From the NCBI GenBank assembly GCA_951406725.2, contig OX597817.1, positions 129,456,001 to 129,520,000 on the forward strand: DNA of 64,000 nt, read 5' to 3'. Numbering within the stretch: the stretch's first letter is position 1; each line of letters begins with the position of its first letter. This document shows, piece after piece, positions 1-30,000 of the stretch. The position numbers are program-made. This DNA is from Octopus vulgaris (taxonomy: Eukaryota).

Positions 1-3000
1 TTAGGGTGTGAATTTTAGGGCTTAGAAGGTTGTTGTGTCCTAGCATATGTGCTGCTTCCTTTAATTTTCGTATTTTCCAGTGGTGTTCTCTGTCTATTAT
101 TTAAACTTCATCCTACAGAAGGAGTTGGTCTCCATTTTTCCATATATGATCAGCTATACTCGATTTATCAATATCTCCTCGTGTCATAACATTGCGTTGT
201 TCCTCTACCCTTATATTGAGGGGCTGGTATGTTTCACCTTTGTATAGCCTACCAAAGCTACATGGGGTGGAGTACACGCATTTTTTGGTCATATTCTCTT
301 CTATTGGTGGTTTTATTCGAAGGAGATTCAAGACATCCGTATATCGCAAGCCGAACTTCACCGGACGATACCTCAACTTCTATTCTCACCATCCATACAG
401 TGTCTAGTGAGGGATTGCTCAGTACCTAAAATATCGAGCAAAGAATATATAAGTAGCGATAGTGATACCCACTACGAAGAAATGATGAAGCTCAGTAACA
501 ATTTATTCAGCAACAATTACTCCAAAAATATACTATCCACTCAAATTATGAAGAAAAGAGAGGATGAAACCAATAAACTATCCAGTCTGACTACCCTATG
601 TGAAAAGCCTCTCCGAAAAGATACAAAAGATATGCGGCCCATATGACATCAGGACAGAATTCAAGAGTATTACAACACTTCGCAAATATCTCCTTCGAGT
701 AAAACCACCAATCGAAGAGAAGATGACCAGAGAACACCACTAGAAAATACGAAAACTAAAAGAAACAGGACATATGCTATGGCACAACAACCTCCTAAGC
801 AGACCGAGTGCAGATATGAATAGCATAAGGGAACCGGTATTAAGGAAGGATAGGGAAATATTAGATATATAAGCCCTAAAGTTCACTCCATAATTGCCCG
901 CGGGTATATGGCGTAGTGGTCAAAAGCGCAGGCTACTACCCCAGGATTCCGAGTTTAATTCCAGGTAATGACCTGAATAATAATAATAATAATAACAACA
1001 ACAACGAAAAATATCCTGGAGGGTATATCAGCCGAAAAAAATAATGTATGTATATATATATATATATATATATATATATATATATATATATATATATATT
1101 TATGTGTGTGTTTGTGTGTGTGTGTGTGTGTAAGTATATATATATATACATATATTTATATATCTACATGCACTCACACACACGCAAACACACACACACG
1201 CACACACACACATATTTATATCTGAATGGAGTTTTGTTCAACATACAGCCAAATATGTTTTTACATTTTATTCAGAGTCCTCTGAAAATCCTCATAGGAA
1301 TATGCACATGTTTAATAATAGAGATGATGACTCATCTGAAGGTAATGATTGTTAAATCTCGACATATTGTATTTCCTGCTAAACTAATATATTGTATCAT
1401 ATAGTTAGAAAAGGTTCGCACACTGGCAGAACTGTATATGTATAGACACATGCAATATATCTATCTATCTATATATATATATATATATATATATATATAT
1501 ATATATATATATATATATAAAATAAAATATTTTGAATAACACAACAATGCACTATAATACGAACCTGACGCACTTCTCATTTGGAATTCCGGAAGAGCTT
1601 CGTCAGACCGCTGTTCAGACGCTTCTGAAAAAAACAAAGAAACGCCGTTGGAAAACCCATTATACCACCGATTCCATCAATTCCTAGGGATATCTGAAGT
1701 AGGAATTTTATTCCGAAATATCATATCAGACTATGGATGATTAAATTACAACAGTTATTATAGTAAATTGTCTGTATTATGGTGCATTGTTGTGTCATTC
1801 AAAATATTTTATTCTTTATAAACATTACACAATGCTTCAAGCGAGCTACAATACTCTCCTATATATATATGTACGAGGTGGTATAAAAAAGTTCCAGGAC
1901 TAGTTCTGTAGCACGCTAACAAATGACAGCATGCGGTTGAGTGCACGTTTACTTCGCAATTTGTGTTGTTGTTATCACGTGTATGCTGTAGTCATCGATT
2001 TTGTCATGAATAGGAACCAAGAGGCAACGTGAGACAGGGTGCATGCTTCGGCAAGCTAACGCGACGAGTTAATGGGTCGTACAGAATGTTTCGGGTAACA
2101 CGGGCGCTTCAAAAGCGGAAAAAACGTCCATGGAGAAAGATGAGCGCTCTAGAAAACCTTTCACGAACGTCACCTCCGGAAATGTGGAGAAATATCATCA
2201 GCTTATTCATGGGTATCGTCGGAGTATAATCGATGACATTGCTGATATCGCTAGTCCGTAGTATGGGTCCGCGATGGCGAACCTAACGCCTGGAGTTTTT
2301 ACGACGACAATGAACCATCCCACCGAGCTCTCCTTACTCGTTAGTTTCTCGCCAGATATAACATGCTATCGCTTCCACCCTCGCTCTATTCGCCAGATTC
2401 AGCACCTACGGACTTCCATCTCTTCCCAAAGATAAAAATAGAGCTCAAAGTCACCGTTTTAATACCGTTGTCGTGGTCAAGAGCGAATCACAGAAGGTCC
2501 TCGACCTGCTTACGGCAAACGATTTCCAGGTTAGATTCTAAAAATGGTAGGAACGCTCTGACCGGTGTATTGCTGCGCAAGGTGACTACTTTGAAGGAAA
2601 TTATATTAAAACTTAGGTAAATAAGTTATTTTCCATTAAACATAATTAGTCCCGGAACGCTTTCATACCAACTCGTATACATACACAGACACACACGCAA
2701 ACACACACACATAAACGCGCGCGCTCACACACACGCTTATATAAGTGAAAAAATGATATATATATAAAATCCTATATTTATAAATAATTATATAAAGCGG
2801 TTGCGTAATCAAGTACCTGCACGCCTCGAGAACTACGTTGCGTGGAAACAATTGTAATGATTAAAAAATAAATGTCCAATGGTACTCCTTGTTGACACCA
2901 ATTTTCTCAGTTATCTTTTTACACACAACAGAATCCTCCGAAAATCTTTCTGATAATCATGGAGATGATGACTCATCTGAAGGTAATGATTGTTAAATCT

Positions 3001-27000: not shown

Positions 27001-30000
27001 AGGCTACTACCCCAGGATTCCGGGTTCGATTCCAGGTAGTGACCTGAATAATAATAATAATAACAACAACAACGAAAAATATCCCAGGAAATATCAGCCG
27101 AAACAAATAATGTATATAATATATATATATATGTATATATATATATATATAATAATGTATATATATATATATATATGTGTGTGTGTAAGTATATATATAT
27201 ACATATATATATATATGTATATACATACGTATATATATATACATGTACATGCACTCACACACACGCAAACACGCACACACACACATATATATATATATAT
27301 ATCTGAATGGAGTTTTGTTCAACATACAGCCAAATATGTTTTTACATTTTATTCAGAGTCCTCTGAAAATCCTCATAGGAATATGCACATGTTTAATAAT
27401 AGAGATGATGGCTCATCTGAAGGTAATGATTGTTAAATCTCGACATATTGTATTTCCTACTACCATCTAACATACTGAATTATTAATATTTTTGTTTGCT
27501 TATCTCTTTTGCTTGTTTTACTTTTTTAGTCACTAGATTGTGGCCATGCTGGGGCACCTACTTTTAGTCGAATGAATCCTAACCAGGATTTATTTTATTT
27601 TTTCTTTAGCGTGGTACTTATTCTACTAGTCTCCTTACTGAACCGTTAATTTACAGGGGCATAAATTACGACACACACGCACACATGTATATATATATAT
27701 ATATATATATATATATATATATATATATATACTTTATTTAAAAGCAGCAGAAATATAACAAAAGCTGTTACTCACAGTTCCGCGTTACCGTTCGTCAGAG
27801 TTTTGCTAAACTGTCCGACGAATGGGAATGTGAAACTTTGAGTAACAGCTTTTGTTATATTTCTGCTGCTTTTAAATAAAGCATATTACTCTACCTCTGG
27901 TATTTGAGTACTCTTTTTCCATCTTTGAGTACTCTTTTTTCCACATTTATGTGCTTACTCCGGTGTATATATATATAACTATATATATATATATATATAT
28001 ATATATATATATATATATATATATACACACACACACGACAAGCTTCTTTCAGCTTACATCTATCTAATCCACTCACAAGGCTTTCGTCGGCCCGAGGCTA
28101 TAGCAGGAGACGATTGTTCAAGATGCCACACAGAGCGACTGGACCCGGAGTCATATGGCTGGAAAGCATTTTTTTAATAAATTAAATGGCTTATTTCTAC
28201 AGTGAGTTGTACAGCAGATCATATTTTAAATTATAACATTTAAATACAAAAAAAAATTAATAAATAAGAAAGATGAAAAAGAAAAAGGGAAAAGAAAATG
28301 GGCAAAGCAGTAGAAGATGGAGAAGGTGAAGATGATGGGCAACACATCCAGGGAAAAATTGTGTACTATTGAGCCAGAAAAGTCTCGTGAACTCGCAGAA
28401 TTGTTAGATCGAAAAAGCAAAATAGATTCCGAATTTCTTCTAGATATTTACGTCTTGGATTCAGATTCTGACGAGTCCAAGTTTGTATTTTACCTTTTGG
28501 TGTCGATAAAATACAGTAACAATCAAGTCCTTCAGTGCATCGATCGACTAACTTCTTTTTTCGAAAAGCGCTGCTCTTCCAGGTAAATCAGAAACCATTA
28601 TTTAGTGAAGAAAACATCATACAGCGTATAATTTCGGTTCTGAGTTCAAATATTTCCAGAGTAAACTTTGCTTATTAGCCTTCAGTGAAGGATAAAGTGA
28701 TGTGACAACCAAATGTTTCTAGTCAATTAGATTGAGCATTCCACCCTAGCAAATCTCTGGTAATTTGTTTATATACGAACTGTTCCAAAAGGAAAAGAAT
28801 GTTGAAATTTATAGTTCAGCTATGATTTCATAAAGGTCTAAGTTGACTGAATACCTTCTTTATGCACTCTCGGACGAAATTTAGGGTGTATTTTACTTTT
28901 TTATTTTATTTCATCTAGTTTCAGCTCACGAGCTGTGGCTATGCCGGGGCACCGCCATTTGGTTTTGCTACATAATTTTACTTCACGAATGCTTTTTAGC
29001 AATTGACATTTGGTGCATGAGAGAGTTTGATGCAGCTGCCCTCATCTGCACCTCCTGCCGCAAAGTTGGTTCATCTGAGACACCTGAGAGGAAGAGGTCC
29101 AGCTTATTTTGAAGACATCTACATCCACCCCATGCAGGTCTCTCAGGTCCTTTGGGAGAATATTGAAGAGCTGTGGACCTATGAAGCCCAGGTTATTGCA
29201 GTATCTTGTCCTACATCTTGATGGCAAATTTGGAGTTCTTGGCACTATGCAGTGGCGCCCAGTTCTTGTATTTGTATAACTCTCGACGCCAAAGTTTGGG
29301 ACAAGTCCTTCCACGATCTTCCAGATGTATATTATAGCATATCTTTCTCGCCTACGCTCTAAGGAATAGAGTCTTAATCTCTTGAGTCTTTCCTAATAGC
29401 TTATATGCTGCATAGAGGCTATCGTCTTCGTGTAGCTTCGTTGGATTGCCTCAAGTTCTGAGATCAATTTGACACTGGTTGGTGACCATAGCTGAGAGCA
29501 ATAGTCAAAGTGGCTTAAGACAAGTGTCCTCCAGAGGACCATCATGGGATCCTGGTCTCTTGTTCTAAAAGTTCTAAGAATCCATCCGGTCAGCCGCCTA
29601 CATTTCATTGCCAATTTAGCAACATGCACATGAAAGGTTGCATCATTACTGATTGTGCCTCTGGGATTGCAATCCCTTCAGGTCCAGTGTATTTATTGGG
29701 TATTTCATTTAGATTTGCATGCTGATATCACAAAGCTTGAAACTTTTCAGCATTAAACTGCATGCTATTCTTTTCAGCCCACTTGTATATTTCATCCAGC
29801 TCACATTGCAAGTGCTGTATTACCTGTGAAACTTTTGTATCATCTGCATAACTTGTGGTCGTGGCTCTCTGTGTGGCTGAGGGCATGTCTGAGGGAGTCA
29901 TTATGAAAAGTAATGGTCCCAAAACAGTGCTTTGCGGAACACCGCTCACTATTTGCGTGTCATTGGAGGCGGCCCCATTGGCTACAACCCCCTGACTTCT

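What the first reader, a model, noticed from the sequence alone, without database searches (positions are those of the whole stretch)
1..27458. Intragenic 5.2-kb macrosatellite: a protein repeat expanded by copying two exons with their introns and transposon cargo
Seen: only 117 of ~5200 nt per unit are coding. The rest (mariner, Penelope remnant, SINE, (TA)n) is co-duplicated at near identity in units 1-4, so the expansion is recent. Known: comparable exon-containing arrays such as LPA kringle IV-2 are copy-number polymorphic. Inference: a length-polymorphic locus that is likely collapsed in short-read assemblies.
Basis: partly seen in the sequence, partly recalled or inferred. Interest (0 to 1): 0.72.

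Follow-up and report, generated by a model that had tools for sequence, protein, structure and literature searches.

The report
Exon-carrying 5.2-kb tandem array in octopus gene
A 5.2-kb block of DNA holding two tiny exon-like pieces and several dead transposons is repeated head to tail at least 5.3 times inside an octopus gene of unknown function, much like the kringle repeat of the human LPA gene, but only one of the two pieces is backed by a gene model.

Summary
The array is real. There are five full units of 5150-5234 nt plus a 1.5-kb partial unit (1 to about 27462), and it starts at window base 1, so it may continue upstream. Outside microsatellites, units 1-4 differ by 0.35-0.92%; unit 5 and partial unit 6 differ by 3.5-4.1% from all others.

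All have AG/GTAATG junctions and phase 1-1, and read ESSEN...DDDSSE.

A public Octopus vulgaris model (CAI9721792.1, 307 aa, orphan, predicted disordered) uses A5 and A6. It then uses four more short phase 1-1 exons at 40.7, 55.1, 59.5 and 62.6 kb. So the array is intragenic. However, the model starts inside unit 5 and skips B5, and no predicted protein carries the B peptide.

The mariner-like element is confirmed, with the same junctions in the units, so it predates amplification. The Penelope (GIY-YIG) label is a lead, the SINE label is unverified, and (TA)n is confirmed.

Copy-number polymorphism, transcript content and orthologous loci could not be tested. Verdict: a new member of a known kind (LPA KIV-2-like exon-bearing macrosatellite), of moderate interest.

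The parts
1..5184 (+). Array unit 1. It begins at the window edge, so the array may continue upstream. 15 of its 24 private substitutions lie in its first ~400 nt.
5185..10418 (+). Array unit 2 (reference unit, 5234 nt)
10419..15608 (+). Array unit 3
15609..20758 (+). Array unit 4
20759..25921 (+). Array unit 5, older (3.5-4.1% from units 1-4)
25922..27462 (+). Partial unit 6 (first ~1.37 kb of the unit pattern, 3.8-4.1% from all others). Homology fades about 40-60 nt after the A6 donor.
1276..1341 (+). Exon-like segment A1 (66 nt, phase 1-1)
2932..2982 (+). Exon-like segment B1 (51 nt, phase 1-1)
6449..6514 (+). Exon-like segment A2
8118..8168 (+). Exon-like segment B2
11690..11755 (+). Exon-like segment A3
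13346..13396 (+). Exon-like segment B3
16874..16939 (+). Exon-like segment A4
18505..18555 (+). Exon-like segment B4
22108..22173 (+). Exon A5 (F>L and D>G relative to A1-A4). The public model's CDS starts at the ATG at 22140, which is the second in-frame ATG of this exon.
23773..23823 (+). Exon-like segment B5, identical to B1-B4 and skipped by the public model
27357..27422 (+). Exon A6 (D>G), used by the public model
40657..40770 (+). Exon C of the same gene (114 nt, phase 1-1, His/Gly/Tyr-rich), 13234 nt after A6
55147..55176 (+). Exon D (30 nt, phase 1-1)
59475..59504 (+). Exon E (30 nt, phase 1-1)
62594..62626 (+). Exon F (33 nt, phase 1-1). The gene continues beyond the window.
7058..7863 (+). 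Mariner-like, internally deleted element in the A>B intron (unit 2 copy). It has ~30-nt imperfect TIRs and TA at both ends, and lies at the equivalent position in the other units.
5186..5563 (-). GIY-YIG-like ORF remnant (Penelope-like element lead), unit 2 copy
   Evidence: no support
5734..6051 (+). Second fragment of the same element type in inverted orientation (arms 5204-5276/5910-5982 are 88% complementary)
6070..6200 (+). SINE-like head plus (AAT/AAC)n tail, unit 2
10225..10411 (-). Second SINE-like copy (87% to the first) with an (AAT)n tail, opposite orientation
8660..9145 (.). Main (TA)n tract of unit 2, the chief source of unit-length differences

Best explanation
The window comes from Octopus vulgaris or a very close relative. 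Positions 1 to about 27462 are an intragenic macrosatellite in the 5' part of an orphan gene (public model CAI9721792.1). That gene is built entirely of very short, symmetric phase 1-1 exons separated by introns of 1.6-14 kb.

Each 5.2-kb unit carries a 66-nt exon (A) and a paralogous 51-nt exon-like segment (B). They encode an acidic, serine-rich module (ESSEN...DDDSSE). The two introns hold a dead mariner-like element, GIY-YIG (Penelope-like) fragments, two SINE-like copies and long (TA)n.

The array grew in layers. First came an old duplication of one exon with its flanks (A/B). Then transposons inserted. Then the whole 5.2-kb block was duplicated (units 5 and 6, about 4% apart). Finally the core (units 1-4) expanded or was homogenised recently, most likely by unequal crossing-over between misaligned units, possibly in two-unit blocks.

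Because every exon is phase 1-1 and divisible by 3, any gain, loss or skipping of units keeps the reading frame. Copy number therefore translates directly into the length of a disordered acidic repeat.

Shown: the array, the junctions, the phases, and use of A5 and A6 in a public model. Inferred: inclusion of A1-A4 and of B in mRNA, the mechanism of expansion, and polymorphism.
For: Array and unit identities.

Exon signals: 11 of 11 A/B copies have AG/GTAATG, length divisible by 3 and an open frame.

Gene model: the frame around exon A hits one protein, 'Hypothetical predicted protein [Octopus vulgaris]'. That protein begins MLNNRDDGSSE + ESSENPHRNMHMFNNRDDGSSE, which reproduces the private substitutions of A5 and A6 exactly. 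It continues in exons at 40657-40770, 55147-55176, 59475-59504 and 62594-62626. All have ag/gtaag junctions and phase 1-1.

Frame: the two A/B differences in the first 15 nt are synonymous in the ESSEN frame, and the A/B length difference is an in-frame 15 nt.

B acceptor: its pyrimidine tract is 13/20, equal to annotated exon F.

Cargo predates amplification: the mariner junctions are shared (right 5/5, left 4/5).

Age of the core: divergence is below the reported heterozygosity of 1.22%.

Expansion pattern: 0 variable sites are shared by adjacent core units, while 7 sites plus one 2-nt indel are shared by alternate units.

Model truncation: the published annotation ran ab initio predictors on a repeat-masked assembly and combined them with transcript evidence (PMC10700109, passages). 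That gives a plausible reason for a model truncated inside an array.
Against: The only gene model starts at an internal ATG of A5 and includes none of A1-A4. It splices A5 directly to A6, skipping B5.

No predicted protein of 77-2000 aa carries the B peptide (1 candidate, none scored). The tool calls this weak evidence.

The protein is an orphan. An exhaustive HMMER search found only itself plus one weak repeat-motif hit (2 hits at E<=0.001), and 1 of 1663 near-length candidates scored, namely itself. It has no Pfam family and is predicted disordered (pLDDT 0.41). Its reality therefore rests on an automatic annotation whose evidence class I could not see.

There is no sign of purifying selection. 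The exons of units 5 and 6 carry 3 changes in 183 nt, against 3.5-4.1% in the background; the difference is not significant by my hand Poisson estimate (about 0.08). All 3 changes are non-synonymous. The intron just downstream of the exons is as conserved between A and B as the exon ends are.

A second frame (offset 0) is also open in both A and B.
Confidence: 0.62

Rival explanations
1. The array is real and lies at or in the gene, but only the last one or two A exons are ever expressed. Units 1-4 and all B segments would then be silent copies (pseudo-exons) in a 5' intron or upstream region, so the array does not lengthen the protein.
For: The public model begins in A5 and skips B5. No protein carries the B peptide. 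There is no selective signature on the exons.
Against: A1-A4 and B1-B5 keep intact splice signals and open frames in 9 of 9 copies, though at under 1% divergence that is expected anyway for units 1-4. The model's start at the second of two in-frame ATGs inside an exon looks like a 5'-truncated model rather than a true start. Identical exons in units 1-4 would be multi-mapping for short reads and likely repeat-masked for ab initio prediction (inference).
Confidence: 0.22
2. The gene model is spurious. The array would then be a non-coding tandem segmental duplication of transposon-rich DNA, and the exon-like features would be chance.
For: The protein is an orphan, disordered and named 'hypothetical predicted'. 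In AT-rich DNA a 17-22-codon open frame and AG/GT dinucleotides are not rare, and two of three frames are open in both A and B.
Against: Six consecutive model exons in the window (A5, A6, C-F) all have canonical junctions (gtaagt three times, gtaaga, gtaatg), pyrimidine tracts of 13-17/20 and the same phase 1-1 across introns of 3-14 kb. Ab initio predictors rarely chain 30-nt exons over such introns without spliced-read support (inference).
Confidence: 0.08
3. The copy number in this sequence is an assembly artefact, with the near-identical core units either over-expanded or collapsed.
For: If the window comes from an assembly like the published one (ONT at about 27x, short-read polished, purge_dups, 1.22% heterozygosity; PMC10700109 passages), an array of over 27 kb with more than 99% identical units is hard to size. 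Core-unit differences (0.35-0.92%) are smaller than allelic differences.
Against: Units 5 and 6 are about 4% from the core and from each other, so at least three distinct unit types exist. Units 1-4 carry private substitutions (24, 7, 0 and 5 sites respectively) and different microsatellite lengths. Two haplotypes cannot give four tandem copies.
Confidence: 0.08

Closest known systems
Human LPA kringle IV type 2 (KIV-2) repeat
   Same: An intragenic tandem array of units a few kb long, each with two short exons and two introns. KIV-2 has 5.5-kb units, exons of 160 and 182 bp, and introns of 4 kb and 1.2 kb (PMC4378929, passages). Here the units are 5.2 kb, the exons 66 and 51 nt, and the introns 1.6 kb and 3.5 kb. 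In both, units are nearly identical, the frame is preserved whatever the copy number, and the edge copies are more diverged than the core.
   Different: KIV-2 encodes a folded 114-aa kringle with known copy-number polymorphism (1 to over 40 copies) and a known phenotype. Here the module is 22 aa, or 39 aa if B is included. It is low-complexity and predicted disordered, and sits in an orphan protein. Only one of the two exons has annotation support. Polymorphism is untested. The two exons are paralogs of each other rather than two halves of one domain.
Acidic Ser-rich secreted phosphoproteins built of short phase 1-1 exons (vertebrate SCPP genes, caseins, osteopontin; recalled, not tested)
   Same: Short symmetric phase 1-1 exons. 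Acidic Ser-x-Glu clusters (2 S-x-[ED] motifs in each exon peptide). Predicted disorder. Growth by exon duplication.
   Different: There is no sequence homology. No signal peptide has been seen, because the N-terminus lies outside the window or is unannotated. Phosphorylation and secretion are untested.
Non-coding macrosatellites and tandem segmental duplications of transposon-rich DNA
   Same: Kilobase-scale units made mostly of transposon remnants and microsatellites, homogenised in the core and diverged at the edge.
   Different: This array sits inside a spliced gene model, and its units carry frame-compatible exons, two of which the model uses.

Membership tests
Exon-bearing intragenic macrosatellite (LPA KIV-2 type) | Head-to-tail tandem units of kilobase size at high identity | tested here: met
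   5 full units plus 1 partial, period 5150-5234 nt, 0.35-4.1% divergence
Exon-bearing intragenic macrosatellite (LPA KIV-2 type) | Each unit holds complete exons whose summed length keeps the frame | tested here: met
   66 and 51 nt, each divisible by 3, phase 1-1, AG/GT in 11 of 11 copies
Exon-bearing intragenic macrosatellite (LPA KIV-2 type) | The repeated exons are present in the mature mRNA or protein | tested here: inconclusive
   A5 and A6 are in public model CAI9721792.1. A1-A4 are not in it, B5 is skipped, and the B peptide is in no predicted protein. No transcript data were available.
Exon-bearing intragenic macrosatellite (LPA KIV-2 type) | Copy number varies between individuals | not testable with these tools
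   No reads, no other individuals and no eukaryotic genome collection were available.
mariner/Tc1 DNA transposon | Terminal inverted repeats flanked by TA | tested here: met
   Arms 7052-7088 and 7833-7869 match at 31 of 37 positions, with TA at both ends of 7058-7863. The flanks are TA-rich, so the target-site duplication itself is not provable.
mariner/Tc1 DNA transposon | DD(D/E) transposase | tested here: inconclusive
   Only a broken ORF remains. The 4 best of 5 PDB hits are Mos1 transposase at the YSPDLAPSDYHLF motif, E 0.04-0.07. There is no Pfam hit in the unit. The paralog at 42245-42505(-) hits HTH_48 at E 0.0021, below the gathering score.
Penelope-like retroelement | GIY-YIG endonuclease domain | tested here: inconclusive
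   Atlas score 0.96 to a eukaryotic cluster with PF01541 in 18% of members. There are no Pfam hits, and the PDB hits are irrelevant.
Penelope-like retroelement | Reverse transcriptase domain | tested here: not met
   0 of 66 unit-2 frames scanned hit RVT or any other family at E<=0.01. At most a 3' remnant is present.
tRNA-derived SINE | tRNA-like head | tested here: not met
   ARAGORN found 0 genes. Rfam found 0 at gathering score. The relaxed scan of 6040-6220 gave only an irrelevant SAM-IV hit at E 7.6.
tRNA-derived SINE | Dispersed copies with a simple-repeat tail | tested here: inconclusive
   Two copies per unit in opposite orientation, 85-87% alike, each beside (AAT)n. All 11 hits are inside the array and none is elsewhere in the window. 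No repeat library was available.
Secreted acidic phosphoprotein (SCPP-like) | Signal peptide and S-x-E phosphorylation clusters | tested here: inconclusive
   S-x-[ED] motifs are present, 2 per exon peptide. The N-terminus is not in the window or the model, so a signal peptide could not be tested. There is no homology.

The most novel reading that the evidence does not exclude
The array is a copy-number-variable 'length dial' for a lineage-specific secreted octopus protein. Each unit would add one or two acidic Ser-x-Glu cassettes (potential Golgi-kinase phosphorylation and calcium-binding sites) to a disordered N-terminal region that is followed by a His/Gly/Tyr-rich and N-glycosylated part. 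Unequal crossing-over in two-unit blocks would change the repeat number between individuals, and B would be an alternatively spliced cassette. This would be an invertebrate counterpart of LPA KIV-2 in a structural or mineral-associated matrix protein.
Probability: 0.15. Interest if true: 0.6.

Novelty: new member of a known kind. Interest (0 to 1): 0.4.

Why it matters
Exon-bearing macrosatellites are among the hardest loci to assemble and annotate. In humans they can have large phenotypic effects, as LPA does.

This locus is a clean example outside vertebrates. It shows how an automatic annotation truncates at such an array: the model starts inside unit 5 and skips one exon type. It also shows how a protein repeat can grow by dragging more than 5 kb of transposon debris along with 66-117 nt of coding sequence.

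It offers a simple test case for long-read genotyping and Iso-Seq in a cephalopod. Its weight is limited by the unknown function of the orphan protein and by the lack of expression and population data.

Tried and rejected
Pfam on unit 2: I scanned 66 of the 84 unit-2 frames listed. The 18 dropped were mostly microsatellite-laden, and they included the two frames spanning exon A (6178-6525 and 6305-6574). 0 of 66 hit at E<=0.01. A rerun of 10 transposon frames at E<=10 gave nothing relevant. Exon A's peptide was covered indirectly through P0001, which has no family (best E 0.093).

Diverged copies downstream: tblastn of all unit-2 frames >=15 aa against 27500-64000 found only the second mariner remnant and three weak hits at 47042-47112. 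The 25-nt exon-end motif with up to 5 mismatches found 11 hits, all in the array. A scan for D/E/S-rich frames turned up exon B's frame in all five units and no comparable acidic, Ser-rich exon candidate elsewhere; exon A's own frame did not reach the scan's threshold.

PDB search for the GIY-YIG-like ORF gave only ribosomal-protein noise.

Rfam and ARAGORN on the SINE-like head found nothing.

Literature: the accession was searched and found in 0 papers. Cephalopod exon macrosatellites were searched with the terms, and nothing relevant appeared in the listings.

Not done:
Exon frames were searched singly. The only spliced sequence used was the depositors' own public model P0001.
- The supplements of PMC10700109 (annotation flowchart and data) were not opened. 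They may say which evidence class supports this model.
- Structure prediction, complex prediction and fold search were not used, because the atlas already shows a disordered model.

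
Full report

Yes. The repeat finder shows families of 5-6 copies spaced 5124-5302 nt apart from base 1 to about 27.4 kb. BLAST of one unit against the window resolves five full units: 1-5184, 5185-10418, 10419-15608, 15609-20758 and 20759-25921. A sixth, partial unit runs from 25922 to about 27462. The window contains no N. The array starts at window base 1, so its true 5' end and total copy number are unknown.

In a MAFFT alignment with microsatellite columns masked, units 1-4 differ from each other by 0.35-0.92% over about 4260 sites. Unit 5 differs by 3.5-4.1% from units 1-4. 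The partial unit differs by 3.8-4.1% from every other unit, including 4.09% from unit 5.

Unit length varies only through microsatellites. The non-simple part is 4342-4363 nt in all five full units.

**2. The 117 nt.**

Reading unit 2 shows two related segments that both end ...GATGATGACTCATCTGAAG|gtaatg. A fuzzy search for that end finds 11 copies, all on the + strand and all inside the array.

The segments are a 66-nt piece (A, 6 copies) and a 51-nt piece (B, 5 copies). In 11 of 11 copies there is a pyrimidine-rich tract plus AG upstream and GTAATG downstream, the length is divisible by 3, and the frame is open. That frame reads (E)SSENPHRNMHMFNNRDDDSSE for A and (E)[16 protein letters not shown] for B, in phase 1-1. 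A second frame (offset 0) is also open in both.

A and B are paralogs. Their homology runs from about 20 nt before the acceptor to about 110 nt after the donor, at 88-91% identity by BLAST. It includes an in-frame 15-nt indel. The two differences in the first 15 nt are synonymous only in the ESSEN frame.

**3. Is it a gene?**

The open frame around exon A (44 aa, unaltered) hit one protein, a 307-aa 'Hypothetical predicted protein [Octopus vulgaris]'. It is CAI9721792.1 / A0AA36F281_OCTVU, a one-member cluster. It begins MLNNRDDGSSE-ESSENPHRNMHMFNNRDDGSSE-DHDEGH.... The first piece reproduces A5's private F>L and D>G changes, and the second reproduces A6's D>G.

tblastn maps the model to A5 (from the ATG at 22140), A6, and then 40.66, 55.15, 59.47 and 62.59 kb, after which it leaves the window.

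Read singly, the downstream exons are 40657-40770 (114 nt), 55147-55176 (30 nt), 59475-59504 (30 nt) and 62594-62626 (33 nt). All have ag|...|gtaag junctions and all are phase 1-1.

So the window is from O. vulgaris or a very close relative, and the array lies in the 5' part of a gene made of tiny symmetric exons with introns of 1.6-14 kb. Because A and B share that phase class, any number of them can be included or skipped without breaking the frame.

**4. Limits of the coding claim.**

- The model starts at the second of two in-frame ATGs inside A5. It contains none of A1-A4 and skips B5.
- The frame around exon B found no predicted protein of 77-2000 aa (1 candidate, none scored; the tool calls this weak evidence).
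- The protein is an orphan. Only 1 of 1663 near-length candidates scored, and that was itself. The exhaustive HMMER search of 1.84 billion representatives gave only itself and one weak hit (P0002, E 4e-4) that shares just a short repeat motif with residues 182-227.
- It has no Pfam family and is predicted disordered (pLDDT 0.41), with no look-alikes.
- Selection is not detectable. A5, B5 and A6 together carry 3 changes in 183 nt, all non-synonymous, against 3.5-4.1% in the background. By my hand Poisson estimate this is not significant (about 0.08).

The published O. vulgaris annotation combined Iso-Seq and RNA-seq, protein alignments and ab initio prediction on a repeat-masked assembly (PMC10700109, passages). 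A model truncated at an array of identical units is therefore unsurprising. I could not see which evidence supports this particular model, and I did not open the supplements. B's acceptor tract (13/20 pyrimidines) equals that of annotated exon F, so B is a credible cassette exon but remains unproven.

**5. The cargo.**

The A>B intron (1565-1603 nt) holds a mariner-like element of about 0.8 kb.
- It has imperfect TIRs of about 30 nt (31 of 37 aligned positions) with TA at both ends.
- Its broken ORF's best four of five PDB matches are Mos1 transposase, aligned at the YSPDLAPSDYHLF motif (E 0.04-0.07).
- A second copy at 41842-42705(-) is 70-78% alike, and one of its frames hits the Mos1 HTH domain at E 0.0021.
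- The right junction is present in 5 of 5 full units and the left in 4 of 5 at up to 4 mismatches. The element therefore inserted before the unit was amplified.

The B>A intron (3466-3552 nt) holds the following.
- The main (TA)n tract.
- Two SINE-like copies in opposite orientation beside (AAT)n. No tRNA-like signal was found for them.
- Two inverted fragments of a GIY-YIG-like ORF. Their only support is an atlas score of 0.96 to eukaryotic clusters, with PF01541 in 18% of the first cluster's members. Pfam and PDB gave nothing, and no RT part is present.
- The consensus GIY-YIG pattern I see in the ORF is recalled from memory, not tested.

**6. History and mechanism.**

There are three layers: the A/B duplication (about 10% divergence), unit duplications giving units 5 and 6 and the core ancestor (about 4%), and a young core (under 1%).

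Among variable sites in units 1-4, polarised by unit 5, the counts are as follows.
- 24 are private to u1, and 15 of those lie in its first ~400 nt. This hints that a more divergent unit lies just upstream, or that there is a recombination breakpoint.
- 7 are private to u2, 5 to u4 and 0 to u3.
- 4 sites plus a 2-nt indel are shared by u1 and u3. These are clustered within 112 nt, so they may be one event.
- 3 dispersed sites are shared by u2 and u4, and 2 sites have pattern 1101.
- No site is shared only by adjacent units.

This weakly favours expansion in two-unit blocks, or conversion between alternate units. A homogeneous core with diverged edge units is the usual signature of unequal exchange (established knowledge). 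Core divergence below the reported 1.22% heterozygosity makes copy-number polymorphism likely, but that is inference.

**7. Comparison with known systems.**

The closest analogue is LPA KIV-2: 5.5-kb units, exons of 160 and 182 bp, introns of 4 and 1.2 kb, and 1 to over 40 copies (PMC4378929, passages). The architecture matches. The differences are a short disordered acidic module instead of a folded kringle, two exons that are paralogs of each other, annotation support for only one of them, and untested polymorphism.

The acidic S-x-E clusters (2 S-x-[ED] motifs per exon peptide), 8 N-x-S/T sequons, 17 His and no Cys, together with phase 1-1 exons, recall secreted phosphoproteins. That is a resemblance from memory, with no homology and no visible signal peptide.

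My literature searches found no report of such an array in cephalopods (listings) and no mention of the accession.

**8. Verdict.**

This is a real, well-defined exon-bearing intragenic macrosatellite, a new member of a known kind. Its claims that all 117 nt are coding, that the locus is polymorphic and that it collapses in short-read assemblies remain untested.

Interest is moderate (0.4).

Noticed in passing
window 43016-44353 (-): An uninterrupted 446-aa frame (Met at residue 11) with an STPR DNA-binding domain (PF21107, E 8.7e-10, above the gathering score). It lies antisense inside the 14-kb intron between exons C and D. It could be a nested intronless gene or a transposon-derived gene.
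   Followed up: partly
window 28332-28583 (+): An ORF starting MGNTSREKL... and ending at a CAG|gtaaat donor, inside the 13-kb intron after A6. It looks like a possible first exon of another transcript. It has no Pfam family (best E 0.025, below cut-off).
   Followed up: partly
window 1-400 (unit 1): 15 of unit 1's 24 private substitutions cluster in its first ~400 nt (about 4% divergence there, against under 1% in the rest). This suggests a recombination breakpoint and a more divergent unit just upstream of the window.
   Followed up: partly
window 34528-35581: A separate tandem duplication of about 754 bp at 99% identity, in the intron after the array and next to long (TA/CA)n tracts.
   Followed up: no
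window 31344-31590 (+), 38083-38231 (+), 46003-46160 (+), 58242-58473 (-): Four copies (77-93% alike) of a dispersed repeat of about 230 nt, probably another SINE family. It differs from the SINE-like element in the array.
   Followed up: no
window 44000-50000 (+): A strongly purine-skewed stretch (GC skew up to 0.29, AT skew 0.25) with long (AAT)n/(GAT)n-type tracts at 46.1-46.9 kb. It also holds two similar ORFs at 47061-47411 and 48858-49220. No Pfam family was found.
   Followed up: no
window 29045-30051 (-) and 57140-57403 (+): Reverse-transcriptase fragments (RVT_1, E 1.3e-8 and 1.6e-7) from retroelements in the long introns.
   Followed up: no
P0002 (708 aa, unnamed source): The only other HMMER hit to the gene product. 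It is a protein with many 15-aa TEDKAAINPEVDLRQ-type repeats that resemble the DDTAFNPEADLTRV repeats in the C-terminal half of CAI9721792.1. The repeat motif may be shared, but this is not evidence of orthology.
   Followed up: partly
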